A stretch of 64,000 nt of DNA from Octopus sinensis (Eukaryota): contig NC_043013.1 of the NCBI RefSeq assembly GCF_006345805.1, positions 5,394,001 to 5,458,000 on the forward strand. Direction: 5' to 3'. A program made the position numbers and the translations under genes. Numbering within the stretch: the stretch's first letter is position 1; every line of letters begins with the position of its first letter. A model generated the notes under the pieces. The model did no database searches. It was given only the letters and a program-made list of their open reading frames with translations, and was not told the origin of the DNA. Shown here one piece after another: positions 18,471 to 47,161 of this stretch.

Positions 18471-19309
18471 TTTGACGATGATGATGATGACAATGGCAGC
18501 AGTGGTGACACCGCTGATAATTATTAAACAGGATGTTCATAACTAGAATTCTTTTGATTGCAAATCTGCTCAATCAAGTCTGACCTGTGGTTAAACAACA
18601 ACAACAAAAATAGCGGGGTGGGGGGTTAAAATACCACTATACAAATACTATTTTCATAATTTTGTTTAATTCCTCCCAGAAATCATGTTTGTCTTTCTTT
18701 ATATACAATCAGCACATTTTACTAAGTTCAAACTAGTTTTTTTGCTATTTCAAAATTTCTAGATTGCAGCTGTGGCAAATTCTAGCCCCAACTCTAACTT
18801 GTTTGATATATTTAGTGAAGGAAATACATTGTGTCAACATCAGACTTTATGTAAAATGATATCATATCTAAAGCAGAATTGTTTCAAATCTTACTTTTTT
18901 TTTTGTTTTTGGTTTTCATTGTTTGCTTCTAGTTTTGTTTTTTTTTTCTTCTAGTTTTATCTTTCCATAGAGAACTTATCAGTAATTATCGACTTCACTG
19001 AATATGATAAACTATCTGTCTGTTTTATCTGTTTCTTTCCCTCTCTTTCTCTCTCTTTATGTATGTATGTGTGTGTATGTGTGCATGCGTGTGTGTGTGT
19101 GTGTGTGTATATACACACACATATATACATACTTAAAGTAATGACTTTTTGCGAACATAATGTGGCAGTCCCAGGATGAGAAGAATGTTACTGTTATTTA
19201 GCCCCGGGGAAACATCATTTCTAGCTGGCTATATGACACATAAAAAATTGTGTGTCCTTATATTTTTCAAATAGGGGAGATCATCACCTCCACTCGGCAC
19301 GACTTTTCA

Positions 19310-19351
19310 TCCACAGACTTGTTTCTGGGTTATTGCTTTTATCAGCGTGGA
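19310..19351 (-). ncRNA. decayed type I hammerhead (G8>A)
   Basis: TCCACG-CTGATAA-AAGCAATAACCCA-GAAAC-AA-GTC-TGTGGA. Confidence 0.6.
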
Positions 19352-19663
19352 GTAGCTTGGTTGGTTAGATGTCGCTGCTGAACTGCTGTAGAAAATATAT
19401 AGATTTTTTAAAGTAACACACAGTCACTGATCTACAAAATAGAAATATTATTTCTAAATCTCTCAAAGAGAGATATACAGTAACAGCACCGTAAAGTAAT
19501 GACTTTTTGTGAACATAATGTGGCAGTTCCAGGATGGGATGAATGTTGCTGTTATTCAACCCCAGGAAACATCATTTCCAGCTGGCTATATGACCCAAAA
19601 AATTCTGTGTCCTTATATTTTCAAACAGGGGAGATCAGTACCTCCACTCAGCACAACTTTGCA

Positions 19664-19708
19664 TCAGTGGACATTTATTTCTGGGTTATTGTCCTTTATC
19701 AGCATGAA
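19664..19708 (-). ncRNA. decayed type I hammerhead (G8>A)
   Basis: TTCATG-CTGATAA-AGGACAATAACCCA-GAAAT-AAAT-GTC-CACTGA at the homologous position in unit 2. Confidence 0.5.
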
Positions 19709-19879
19709 GTAGCTTGGTTGACTAGATGTCACTACTGAACTGCTGTCGAAAATATAAGAACACAGAATTTTTTATGTCATATAGCCAACTGGAAACGATG
19801 TTTCCTGGGGCTAAATAACAGTAACATTCATCCCATCCTGGGACTGCCTCATTAAGATGGCAATAAATCATTACTTTAT

Positions 19880-20520
19880 TGTGCACTTTCCATACATGAG
19901 TTGGACGATTTTGACTGAGGGCTGGTGAACCAGATAGCTGCACCAGGCTCCAATCTTGATCTGGCAGAGTTTCTACTGCTGGATGCCCTTCCTAACGCTA
20001 ACCACTCCGAAAGTGTAGTGGGTGTTTTTTATGTGCCACCGACACGGGAGCCAGTCAGGCAGTACTGGCAACGACTTCGCTCAAATCTTTTTACACATGC
20101 CACCAGCACAGGTGCCAGTAAGGCGTGGCTGGTAACGATCACACTCGAATGGTGCCTTTTATGTGCCACTGGCACAGAAGCCAGTTGGCCGCTCTGGCAA
20201 TGATCACGATCAGATGGTGCTCTTAGCTCCCTACTAGCATGGGCACAAGTGCCAGTAAGGTGATGCTGGTAACGATTACACTCGAATGGTGCCTTTTACG
20301 TGCCACCGGCATGGAAGACAGTTAGCTGCTCTGGCAACGATCACGATCAGATGGTGCTCTTTGCACCCCGCTAGCACGGATGCCAGTCATCGAATTTGAT
20401 TTTGATTTTGATCTGATTTCACTTGCCTCAACAGGTCTTTGCAAGCAGAGTTTAGTGTCCAAAGAAGGAAAATGTATGCATAAGTGGGCTGGTTACGCTC
20501 CTGGCATAGGCCACGAGATT
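19880..20520 (-). mobile_element. Meta-domain-like retroposon with internal duplication
   Basis: Same family as 10900-11460; ~140-bp internal segment repeated twice. Confidence 0.7.
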
Positions 20521-20887
20521 ATGTGTCTGTGTTTGTCCTCCTGCCATCGCTTGACAACTGATGTTAATGTACTTATATCCCCGTAACTTAGTGGTTCAGC
20601 AAAAGAATAAAATAGAATAAGTACTAGGCTTACAAAGTTCAAACCTGAAGTGAATTTTGACTTACTGTTTTCAAGAAAATAAAATTCCTGAGAAGTTCTA
20701 AGACTAATATTTATATTCTTATATAAACATTTTGAATGTGAAAAAAATTATATAAGAAAACTAAGGCTTCCACCCAAGATGTTCTCTTTTGCGGCTGATT
20801 CTAGATAAATTTTTCACATTGTCTGGCTTTTGACCTCCATAACTGTACATAATTTTCGTTTCCTGTATCAGACAGATATCTCTGATC

Positions 20888-20965
20888 TGTTGTTGTTGTT
20901 GCTGCTGCTGTTGTTGGTCTTGTTACTGTTGTTTTTATTATTGGTGCGGCTGTTGCTGCTACTGC

Positions 20966-20996
<31 letters not shown>

Positions 20997-21205
20997 GATG
21001 GTGGTGGTCGTGTTGCTGTTGTTTTTGTTGTTGTTGATGGTGGTGGTGGTGGTGGTGATGGTGGTGGTGGTGGTGATGGTGGTGGTGGTAATGGTAGCTG
21101 TCATGGTGGTGGTCTTGTTGCTGCTGCTGCTGCTGTTGTTGTCATCGTCATCGTCGGTGGTGGTGGTGGTGGTCTTGCTACTGTTGTTGTTTTCGTTGTT
21201 GCTAC
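20888..21205. repeat. (GTT/GGT/GCT)n compound microsatellite
   Basis: Visible trinucleotide repeats. Confidence 0.95.
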
Positions 21206-21758
21206 CATGGGTGTTGTAGCTGTACAACCCTAAGTCATTTCTGATTGAACATAACCTACAGCAAGCAGTTGGTCTTATTGTATTTGGATTTGGCAGAGGT
21301 TTTGATGGAAATTTACCACTGATATTCCTTACATTGGAATACATAAATGTATTTTTGGAATATTTATCCCAGACAAAGGTCTTCTGATAGACAATTGCAT
21401 ATTATTTTTAGGAACAGCATCATGCCACACAGAAGCATTATTGAATGCCTGCTCCTAATTGCATATTCTGTATTCCGACCTCCGCAGCAGAGAGTAATGA
21501 CCTCCATGCCACAAAGCAAAATTTTAATTGTTTACTCTCTGGCAGTCTGGCAGAATTGTTAGCCCATCAAACAAAATGTTTACCAGCACTTCTTCAAGCT
21601 CTGTATGTTCTGAGTTCAAATCCTACCATCGTCTACTTTGCCTTTCATCCCACCACCACCACCAACACCACCACCATCACCACCACCACCATCACCATCA
21701 CCATCACCATCATCATCATCATCACCACCACCACCACCACCACACCACCACCACCACC

Positions 21759-23551: not shown

Positions 23552-24840
23552 CGAGGGACGTTCAATAAGTAATGCCTCTGACCCACTTGCAGTTGTTTGA
23601 TCTAGCTGAAACTTTGTATGTGCAATCATTTATATCTCTATAGAGTAAGTGGCAAATTACAGCACTGAATTAATTGTGGTTTCTGATTTACAGGTGTTTG
23701 AACCGAGTCAAGTGTTAAATGGAGCCTGTTGAGTGTCGAGCAGTGATCCGGTTTTTGTATTTGAAAGGACGCACACCACGGGAGACTTTTGATGAAATGA
23801 AAGTAACTTATGGTGATGATGCCCCATCATATGACCTTGTAAAACGCTGGCATCGTGAATTCAAACATGGTCGGAACACTGTGGAAACAGCTCCCAGATC
23901 TGGTCGCCCCCTTCTGCCATTGATGAGGCATCTGTCCGTGAAGTTGAGGCTGCCATTTTGGAAGATCGACGCATAACTATTCGCCAAATAGCCCATGAGG
24001 TCAAGATTAGTACCGGGTCTGTGGAAACTATCATTCATGACCATTTGCATATGCAAAAGGTATCTGCCAGATGGATTCCCAGGTTGCTCACGCCTTTCCA
24101 GAAGCAAGAACGCGTCGAGTGCTCGAGGATGAATTTGGAGATGTGCCAAGAAGATGAGTCAAAATTTTTCAAAAGACTGATTACACAGGATGAAACCTGG
24201 GTCCATCATGATGATCCAGAGACCAAAGCCCAGTCAATGCAGTGGAAGCACCGTGACTCACCCCCTCCAAAGAAGGCAAGGATGCAGCCCTCCGCTGGCA
24301 AGGTCATGCTCACAGTCTTCTGGGACCAGGACGGAGTAGTGATAACAGATTTCCTGGCAAAGGGTACCACAATTGCAGGAGCCTATTATGCTTCACTTTT
24401 GAGGAAATTAAGAGAAGTTATCAAAATCAAGAGGCGGGGCAAGATCAGCAAAGGCATCCTCCTCCTGCAGGACAACGCTCCGGTCCACAACTCGCTTGTC
24501 GCCAGATCAGAAGCACAGGCGTATGGCTATGAACTCCTCCCCCATCCCCCTACTTTCCTGACCTTGCACCCTCTGATTTTCACCTCTTCCCAGTCATGAA
24601 GTTGTTTTTGAAAGGAAAGCGTTTCCCAGATGATGCAGCCTTGATTTCTGAAGTTGCGTTCAGGTTGGAGTACCAAGCTGGGGTCTTCTATAAAAACGGT
24701 CTCCAGAGCTGCATCAAACAATGGGAGAAATGCGTAACTCTGGGTGGTTCCTATGTAGAAAAAGACTAATACTGTGCCAAATTTCGTTGCTCTACTGCTA
24801 TGGGAAGTGGGTCAGGGGCATTACTTATTGAACGCCCCTC

Positions 24841-31540: not shown

Positions 31541-31743
31541 CCTTTTATACATATCAAAACAGGTGACAGCTAGTTTTAAGACATTTACTTTGCAATCGAA
31601 AGGTCCTGGGTTCAATCCTGCTGTCTGGTACCTCGAGCAATTTATTATTTTGAGTAAAATGAGTTGACCAGTGAATAGATTTCACTGTAAATATATATAT
31701 TTGCGAAGGCTAGACAGGTATCTCAACTAGCAGGACTCGCTAT

Positions 31744-31789
31744 CCTGGACTGATGACGGGTAAGACCCAGAAACATGCATGTCTTCAGG
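31744..31789 (+). ncRNA. minimal type I hammerhead ribozyme, intact core
   Basis: CCTGGA-CTGATGA-C-GGGT(AAG)ACCC-A-GAAAC-ATGCAT-GTC-TTCAGG; palindromic stem III ACATGCATGT; GUC triplet; downstream 31815-31935 is homologous to the 9205/19134 repeat. Confidence 0.85.
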
Positions 31790-32190
31790 TGTGAATCCTA
31801 GTTGGTGGGGGTATTTGCCTCCCTTTTGCACATATAAGGACACAGGAAATGTGTCAAAGCCGACAGGAAGCGTCAATGCTTCCTAGGGCTAAACAGCAGT
31901 GGTGTAATTCCCTTACGGGACTATCACGTTATGTTGACAGTATACAACCACTCTGAGTTGATGGGAATTGTATGGAAGTAGAAGTTCACAATTAGCCTAC
32001 CGCAAGAAACTAGTGACATCTACAATGAGGCAGCACCATTTTTTGAAACTCGGAAGGAGGTAGGAACAACTGTTTTTTCCTTGTTTTTCATGGTTATGTA
32101 AACGTGAATAACTGATCTTTTCTTCTTCATTATAATCTCTGTTATAAGAGTTAACAATTACAATTACCAGGCATGTAAAAACATTTTAAA

Positions 32191-46852: not shown

Positions 46853-47161
46853 CGCGGGTTACGACGACGAGGGTCCCAGCTGATACGATCAACGGAACAG
46901 CTTGCTCGTGAATTAACGTGCAAATGGCTGAGCATTCCACAGACACGTGTACCCTTACGTAGTTCCGGGGGAAAATCAGCGTGACACAGAGAGTGACAAG
47001 GCTGACCCTTTGAAATACAAGTACAAATCATTTTGCCAGCTGAGTGGACTGGAGCAACGTGAAATAAAGTGTCTTGCTCAAGGACACAACGCGTCGCGGG
47101 AATTGAACTCACAACCTTACGATCATGAGCCGAATGCCCTAACCACTAAGCACGCGCCCTC
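46853..47161 (-). mobile_element. tRNA-derived CORE-like SINE (OR-type-like)
   Basis: Head GAGGGCGCGTGCTTAGTGGTTAGGGC..GAGTTCAATTCCC; GTGTCCTTGAGCAAGACACTT core. Confidence 0.8.

What the first reader, a model, noticed from the sequence alone, without database searches (positions are those of the whole stretch)
19134..19878. Tandem ~354-nt hammerhead monomers with an upstream inverted segment (retrozyme-like architecture)
Seen: two direct repeats 358 bp apart, each with a minus-strand hammerhead; the GUC cleavage sites (19316 and 19670) are 354 nt apart, and a ~130-bp inverted copy abuts the 5' side of the ribozyme strand. Established: non-LTR retrozymes are tandem monomers of a few hundred nt released by hammerhead cleavage, and Penelope insertions typically show tandem pLTRs plus an inverted 5' segment. 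Inference: fossil of rolling-circle-type reverse transcription of a circular RNA. Both cores read CTGATAA, which could be CpG decay of CTGACGA, so this copy is probably dead.
Basis: partly seen in the sequence, partly recalled or inferred. Interest (0 to 1): 0.75.

Follow-up and report, generated by a model that had tools for sequence, protein, structure and literature searches.

The report
Penelope-moved repeat with mismatched hammerhead core
This is a worn-out copy of a small, protein-free jumping repeat whose copies end in the pattern of Penelope retrotransposons; its whole lineage spread while carrying a mismatched base pair in the core of its hammerhead-shaped RNA, a change predicted to cripple self-cutting, which two related lineages likely repaired later.

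Summary
The locus is 1.75 tandem copies of a 353-nt unit (19134-19756, minus strand) plus an inverted arm (19746-19884), with GUC sites 354 nt apart. It is a decayed copy (about 9% from its subfamily majority) of a dispersed non-coding family. Arms end at two fixed internal sites, not at the cleavage site, and 39 of 40 classifiable inverted insertions pair one short with one long end. That matches the two internal reverse-transcription starts shown for a Penelope protein (PMC11167929). The scan already reported this footprint for other families in this genome. CTGATAA is not CpG decay: A8 is subfamily-wide (29 of 32), giving a C3·A8 mismatch at the core 3-8 pair. On the tree, C3·A8 lineages lie between two C3-G8 groups and a U3-A8 group (AU p 0.001-0.004 against single clades), and stem I kept co-varying meanwhile. 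So a core predicted to be crippled propagated for a long time and was likely re-paired twice. A circular template is neither shown nor excluded, since 5' truncation makes long arrays rare either way. No coding partner was found; cleavage is untested.

The parts
19134..19756 (-). Main arm: 1.75 head-to-tail units; 3' end at the 'short' site (unit position 178 after the cleavage site); crosses two cleavage sites
   Evidence: 90% identical to the subfamily majority; the only arm crossing two cut sites among 47 of its lineage (it was the query)
19316..19669 (-). One cleavage-to-cleavage unit, 354 nt, non-coding
   Evidence: fold z -1.5 for this decayed copy; z -8.9 for the subfamily majority; no ORF of 100 aa or more here
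19310..19351 (-). Downstream type I hammerhead remnant: stem I intact, core C3·A8, stem II weakened, stem III palindrome lost; cut site after 19316
19664..19708 (-). Upstream type I hammerhead remnant: core C3·A8, stems I and III broken; cut site after 19670
19437..19491 (-). Approximate 'tail': the ~55 nt between the family's short (about 178) and long (about 233) 3' end sites, two small hairpins
   Evidence: for the two end clusters; hairpins
19746..19884 (+). Inverted, 5'-truncated second arm (unit positions 46-184); predicted to have ended at the long site before being cut short
   Evidence: 92% to majority; no remnant of the missing tail found in 19885-21700 (31% of shuffles score as well)
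19746..19756 (.). Inversion junction: 11 nt shared by both arms, lying in the element's own inverted repeat (outer end of extended stem I)
   Evidence: same junction type in L173, L180 of the young sister family
19058..19133 (.). (TG)n/(TA)n microsatellite abutting the 3' end: likely target site
   Evidence: microsatellite or AT-rich 3' flanks in many loci
19885..20440 (+). Very abundant unrelated interspersed repeat (SINE-like; label inferred, right end approximate) that begins where the inverted arm stops
   Evidence: D7, D9, D18; summed depth above 10^6, loose ends

Best explanation
The locus is a decayed insertion of a dispersed, non-coding 353-nt hammerhead-bearing repeat that was likely copied in trans by a Penelope-like element (PLE) protein from an uncut, more-than-unit RNA, and its whole subfamily carries a C3·A8 core mismatch predicted to cripple self-cleavage. 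Inferred mechanism: the GIY-YIG endonuclease nicks both strands of AT-rich or microsatellite DNA. Each 3' end primes reverse transcription inside the RNA, one at the short site (about 178 nt after the cleavage site) and one at the long site (about 233). Both cDNAs stop early and anneal through short complementarity, here the element's own stem, which gives two back-to-back arms. The ribozyme is likely dispensable for a single insertion, which is why a C3·A8 master could spread. It is likely favoured over longer times, since the 3-8 pair was re-formed as U3-A8 in one descendant group and as C3-G8 in at least one other. Shown: anatomy, end sites, long/short pairing, subfamily-wide A8, tree position. 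Inferred: the enzyme, dual priming, loss of activity, order of events. Linear read-through versus circle: about 55:45.
For: 3' ends cluster at two sites in five subfamilies; only 4 of 230 arm ends lie within 10 nt of the cut site. Of 70 inverted pairs, 40 had both ends classifiable: 39 long+short, 1 long+long, 0 short+short (binomial p 4e-11). The two arms of one locus are more alike than arms of different loci (0.94 vs 0.885, n=18 young-family pairs; 0.84 vs 0.80, n=11 here). PMC11167929 (abstract and main text read): PLE RT cleaves and extends both strands, prefers AT-rich DNA, starts at two internal sites that bound the 'tail', and hammerhead mutants insert normally. PMC8557442 (passages): partial tandem plus inverted 5' copy plus tail at one end is the PLE signature. 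Only 1 of 196 arms with an intact 3' end starts at a cut site, while 151 cross one (sets were chosen by ribozyme-covering queries). The unit follows itself with no ORF, and no shared coding flank was seen in 80 loci. The genome holds GIY-YIG PLE-type ORFs up to 883 aa, several of 781. Core: C3 in 30 of 33, A8 in 32 of 34 arms. Single mutants at the 3-8 pair have low activity (PMC9901934 passage; G8C and C3G in PMC11167929). With columns 3 and 8 removed, AU rejects one clade for all G8 rows (p 0.0011; 0.0042 without the long-branch family) and for all C3·A8 rows (p 0.0014).
Against: No autonomous partner identified: of 30 GIY-YIG loci (out of 5029 candidates) none shares its 3' end with the unit; the only hits (L097, L107) are separate neighbouring insertions. 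The tail here (about 55 nt) is longer than the 30-40 nt described. 30 of 70 inverted pairs could not be classified, including this locus, whose inverted arm stops at 184. In vitro PAc showed no strand difference in start site, so the strict long+short rule is not explained by that paper. The G8A change itself was not measured in any passage I read. The rest of the core stayed invariant along the C3·A8 lineage (0 of 11 vs 33 of 131 unpaired columns, p 0.07) and stem I co-varied, which could mean retained catalysis. Trees are 'quick' IQ-TREE, unrooted, groups were named after seeing earlier trees, and recombination between subfamilies was not tested. Divergence ages do not order the subfamilies cleanly.
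Confidence: 0.78

Rival explanations
1. Same element and enzyme, but the template was a ribozyme-made RNA circle copied for more than one lap; this requires that the C3·A8 hammerhead kept enough activity, probably as a dimer or with protein help.
For: The unit majority folds strongly with ends brought together (z -8.9; a natural young unit z -6.8). The two tandem units diverged independently from one near-identical master (15 differences in 156 non-CpG sites). Arms crossing two cut sites occur even in the canonical-core family. Logic (inference): if RT needs RNA downstream of its start, as PAc does, a linear template loses a unit each generation, yet the C3·A8 lineage lasted through 37 + 40 fixed differences. 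The stem III palindrome changed CCGG to CTAG in two lineages. Mussel retrozymes of 350-390 nt form circles (PMC7229834 section read). Earlier notes report multi-lap arrays for other families here (not tested by me).
Against: No arm of 2 or more full units in 136 loci (max 1.82; 1.99 for L036 by a rough map) and none crossing three cut sites in 196 arms, though steep truncation makes this weak. In the young family 331 exact motifs give only 1 direct pair at unit spacing. The fold is equally formed in a linear tandem. The 3-8 mismatch is predicted to impair cleavage.
Confidence: 0.4
2. The repeats are only the pseudo-LTR ends of a protein-coding Penelope element, left by 5' truncation.
For: All end features are PLE features; most PLE hammerheads in genomes are solo remnants (PMC4209133, parts 1-2 read).
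Against: Long arms run from unit into unit with no ORF between; no shared flank or PLE ORF next to 80 loci or 30 young-family loci; sampled coding PLEs have unrelated 3' ends with U3-A8 hammerheads.
Confidence: 0.07
3. Local tandem duplication and inversion of a dispersed repeat after insertion (DNA-level event), with per-copy decay of the core.
For: The two window units group together weakly in FastTree (support 0.74).
Against: The same tandem and inverted layout with fixed ends recurs at dozens of unlinked loci; each unit is as far from the other as expected from independent decay since insertion; A8 is family-wide.
Confidence: 0.03

Closest known systems
Metazoan non-LTR retrozymes (PMC7229834, mussel 350-390 bp units; bioRxiv 10.64898/2026.07.22.740005)
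   Same: Non-coding unit of about 350 nt, GC 42%, type I hammerhead with 6-bp stem I and short palindromic stem III, strongly self-paired, tandem copies, co-occurs with PLEs.
   Different: Core is C3·A8 with an A·A mismatch at the base of stem II; arrays stay under 2 units and are mostly two-armed inversions; cleavage and circles untested; neither paper's read parts describe fixed 3' ends or cephalopods ('octopus' and 'cephalopod' 0 hits in PMC7229834).
EN+ Penelope-like elements and their pLTR/tail (PMC8557442; PAc in vitro, PMC11167929)
   Same: Partial tandem, inverted 5' arm, tail on one end only, AT-rich or microsatellite targets, 3' ends downstream of the hammerhead and not at its cut site.
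   Different: No ORF; tail about 55 nt; partner element not identified.
Non-autonomous Chlamys PLEs such as MRC1 (PMC8557442 passage)
   Same: Non-coding, pLTR-forming, head-to-tail insertions moved in trans.
   Different: Those resemble their autonomous partner at the 3' end, and most Chlamys elements lack hammerheads; here no such resemblance was found in 30 loci.
Natural hammerhead core variants U3-A8 (PMC3088659 section 8; PMC4209133)
   Same: A sister group of this family carries exactly U3-A8.
   Different: The uncompensated C3·A8 state as a family-wide, propagating core was not in the passages read nor found by the searches.

Membership tests
Non-LTR retrozyme | Short (150-450 nt) non-coding unit in head-to-tail repeats | tested here: met
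   353-nt unit, 1.75 copies, no ORF
Non-LTR retrozyme | Type I hammerhead secondary structure in each unit | tested here: met
   Across 24 rows stem I is 93% paired, 5 of 6 pairs change on both sides; 0 of 500 shuffles reach the score (rows are related, and one row, L074, was given on the wrong strand)
Non-LTR retrozyme | Complete canonical catalytic core in two consecutive units ('active' definition of the 2026 preprint) | tested here: not met
   C3·A8 in both units and in the subfamily; met by sister subfamilies
Non-LTR retrozyme | Self-cleavage of the transcript | not testable with these tools
   needs an in vitro assay
Non-LTR retrozyme | Accumulation of unit-length circular RNA | not testable with these tools
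   only contigs of runs guessed to be RNA were available
Non-LTR retrozyme | Long multimeric arrays from rolling-circle copying | tested here: inconclusive
   max 1.82 units in 136 loci, but truncation alone predicts that
PLE-mobilised (non-autonomous) element | Two fixed 3' ends bounding a tail, tail on one end of the insertion | tested here: met
   39 of 40 classifiable pairs
PLE-mobilised (non-autonomous) element | 5' truncation with partial tandem and inverted 5' arm; AT-rich or microsatellite target | tested here: met
PLE-mobilised (non-autonomous) element | Shared terminal sequence with an autonomous PLE | tested here: inconclusive
   none in 30 of 5029 GIY-YIG candidates
Autonomous PLE | RT + GIY-YIG ORF between pLTRs | tested here: not met
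   no ORF in the unit or shared in flanks

The most novel reading that the evidence does not exclude
The family is a natural record of a hammerhead crossing a fitness valley: a C3·A8 core, expected to be nearly dead, stayed functional enough (as a dimer or with PLE protein) to keep making RNA circles through about 75 fixed substitutions and several compensated stem changes, and was then rescued twice by different routes, U3-A8 compensation and return to C3-G8.
Probability: 0.3. Interest if true: 0.72.

Novelty: new variant of a known kind. Interest (0 to 1): 0.5.

Why it matters
Whether the hammerhead in Penelope-type elements and animal retrozymes is needed for spreading is open: an in vitro PLE inserts without it, yet it is widely conserved. 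This family offers matched natural alleles (C3-G8, C3·A8, U3-A8) in one scaffold, each with many genomic insertions. One cleavage assay would therefore tell whether a retrozyme can spread without cutting (short-term dispensable, long-term favoured) or whether an unrecognised core variant works. The long/short arm rule also links retrozyme insertion to the PLE two-site priming mechanism, but the scan has already reported that for other families in this genome. The locus itself is an ordinary dead copy.

Tried and rejected
Rfam: no hammerhead hit at gathering or E up to 10. CpG-decay idea: rejected. Search for a coding partner: Pfam accession PF26215 is not in the library; PF01541 gave 149 matches, 30 fetched, none sharing ends; flanks of 80 loci share only microsatellites and SINE-like repeats. 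RNA: no RNA holder listed; contigs of four runs guessed to be RNA hold family fragments and one 93-nt piece identical to 19295-19387, which says nothing on strand, level or circles. Array length as a test of the circle: uninformative, since 2 of 73 young-family arms pass the second ribozyme, about what exponential truncation predicts (my estimate about 1.4). Shared private variants between tandem units: 8 seen vs 13.5 expected in this subfamily, no signal. A 5' wall at the cut site: not seen, 1 of 196. Missing tail beyond the SINE-like repeat: not found. Invariance of the core along the C3·A8 lineage: not significant (p 0.07 and 0.13). The first pile-up majority was wrong in its first few positions and was replaced. 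Five rows were wrong motif picks and were dropped before the AU tests; ten rows without a readable core were left out. Papers not held. Supplements were not read; those of the bioRxiv preprint and of PMC9901934 (per-mutant activities) could bear on novelty and on the G8A effect.

Full report
Observation. On the minus strand 19756-19134 holds 1.75 copies of a unit, and 19746-19884 is an inverted arm of unit positions 46-184. GTC triplets end at 19670 and 19316. The two arms overlap by 11 nt inside the element's own inverted repeat, the outer end of an extended stem I. The main arm ends against a (TG)/(TA) microsatellite; the inverted arm stops where a very abundant SINE-like repeat begins. Contigs from two other runs span the junction with no difference. 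Both hammerheads in this copy are damaged and fold no better than shuffles; Rfam does not detect them.

Family. The window lies in G000, a 2.7-Gb animal genome (octopus-like by my recall and by earlier notes; not established here). A search with the unit gave 2838 first-look candidates, 40 scored, 70 matches. A pattern for the ribozyme loop with up to two mismatches gives 210 matches. Related sequence is present in DNA runs of four other coded organisms. The subfamily of this locus has a 353-nt majority that folds at z -8.9, and copies are 9.0% from it (38 arms). The two window units differ at 15 of 156 non-CpG sites and share 2 derived changes against 1.8 expected, so both were close to the master at insertion. 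No ORF lies in the unit, and no coding flank is shared among 80 loci or 30 loci of a young sister family.

Insertion footprint. Measured from the cleavage site, arm 3' ends fall in two clusters, about 165-182 and 220-241. In 60 young-family loci taken in listing order from an exact-motif search, 80 of 95 arm ends lie in these clusters. Over five subfamilies (136 loci, 230 arms) 4 ends lie within 10 nt of the cut site. Of 70 inverted pairs, 39 were long+short, 1 long+long, 0 short+short and 30 had an unclassifiable end (p 4e-11 on the 40). Arms of one locus are more alike than arms of different loci, consistent with one template variant per event. This is the PLE signature of partial tandem, inverted 5' copy and a tail at one end (PMC8557442, passages). 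It fits the in vitro behaviour of the anole PLE protein, which cuts and extends both strands of AT-rich DNA, starts at two internal sites bounding the tail, needs RNA beyond the start, and inserts hammerhead-dead RNA normally (PMC11167929, abstract and main text). The genome has PLE-type GIY-YIG ORFs with a CxxxxCxxC linker (Neptune-like by the description in PMC8557442), but the 30 fetched share no ends with this unit. Earlier notes of this scan report the same footprint for other retrozyme families here; my reading was written before that look-up.

The core. Position 8 is A in 29 of 32 nearest copies and position 7 is T in 31, while CpG columns are split, so CTGATAA was in the master (C3 30 of 33, A8 32 of 34 arms). 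Exact patterns give 32 G8 and 20 A8 matches, linked to different loop II bases. C3·A8 occurs with two stem I types that differ by three compensated pairs. In one search, 26 of 63 one-mismatch rows are U3-A8; all 21 that I examined are nearest to the second C3·A8 group (three are near-identical duplicates). A further group nearest L048 is C3-G8 in 19 of 22 rows with a correctly located motif, out of 30 fetched. With columns 3 and 8 removed, C3·A8 rows form the backbone between a C3-G8 group (SH-aLRT 99), a nested U3-A8 group (83 for 16 rows) and a second C3-G8 group (99) that also takes the long-branched young family. AU tests reject one clade for all G8 rows (p 0.0011; 0.0042 without the young family) and for all C3·A8 rows (p 0.0014). 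The three C3·A8 majorities differ by 37 and 40 positions; 7 pairs changed on both sides and stayed paired, 11 changed on one side and stayed, 11 broke. The other 11 core positions did not change, but that is not significant (p 0.07). The tree is unrooted, groups were named after earlier trees, and recombination was not tested. With the root outside the C3·A8 groups at least one return to G8 is needed, and U3-A8 is a likely second, compensatory route.

What the mismatch should do. C3 and G8 pair in the active fold, and natural covariation to U3-A8 is known (PMC3088659 section 8; PMC4209133 parts 1-2). In a full pairwise scan, all single mutants in this region had low activity (PMC9901934 passage). 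G8A itself I did not see measured. Searches for a described C3·A8 family found nothing (two searches found no cephalopod retrozyme paper), within an open-access library only. A repeat annotation of Octopus vulgaris does not mention ribozymes (PMC13282606 passages).

Circle or linear template. Cleaved linear monomers are not the usual template: 1 of 196 arms starts at a cut site and 151 cross one (the sets were chosen by ribozyme-covering queries). Two arms cross two sites, none three. Direct pairs are rare (1 among 331 exact motifs), but 5' ends decay steeply with distance, so absence of long arrays is no test. For a circle: a linear template would lose one unit per generation if RNA beyond the start site is required (inference), and the palindromic stem III was re-formed in two lineages. 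Against: the core mismatch. I put it at about 55:45 for linear read-through. PMC7229834 (sections 14 and 17, passages) and the 2026 preprint (parts 1-3 of 5) propose PLE mobilisation; in the latter only 1 of 9 tested dimers cleaved.

Verdict. It works like a non-LTR retrozyme moved by PLE machinery, but this subfamily fails the canonical-core test, so I file it as a variant, not a plain member. The locus is a dead copy and the class has been reported repeatedly by this scan. What is added is a long-lived, propagating C3·A8 core flanked on the tree by two different paired states, which a single cleavage assay can resolve.

Noticed in passing
window 31673-31956 (+): Copy of a younger sister family (352-nt unit, about 5% diverged, canonical C3-G8 core with palindromic stem III, fold z -10 for the majority); best candidate for an RNA circle test.
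   Followed up: yes
window 9177-9454 (-): Copy of another sister subfamily of the same unit (G8 lineage; this copy has T at position 3).
   Followed up: partly
window 11610-11690 (-): Separate minimal hammerhead-like motif with a 4-bp stem II and canonical CTGATGA, next to a (TA)n tract; fold z -2.8; possibly the end of another PLE.
   Followed up: partly
L107:46-415 (as oriented): A more distant two-armed unit of the same superfamily whose single readable core is also C3·A8; may be a second family with this mismatch.
   Followed up: no
L085-L110, 3' untranslated regions: Young Neptune-like PLEs (several open frames of 781 aa) carry U3-A8 hammerheads near their 3' end and end in (TA)n.
   Followed up: partly
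L036 (G000:C4:4947970-4950995): Arm of about 1.99 units by a rough map, the longest seen, in a canonical-core subfamily.
   Followed up: no
window 5804-5877 (-) and 47088-47157 (-): tRNA match of 70.8 bits and a weaker tRNA-like match of 34.4 bits.
   Followed up: no
window 23859-24599 (+): 246-aa open frame with Pfam Transposase_1 (mariner-type label recalled).
   Followed up: no
L234-L236 (G000:C3 near 74.1, 74.4 and 74.7 Mb): Three near-identical loci about 285 kb apart: a segmental triplication or assembly repeat.
   Followed up: no
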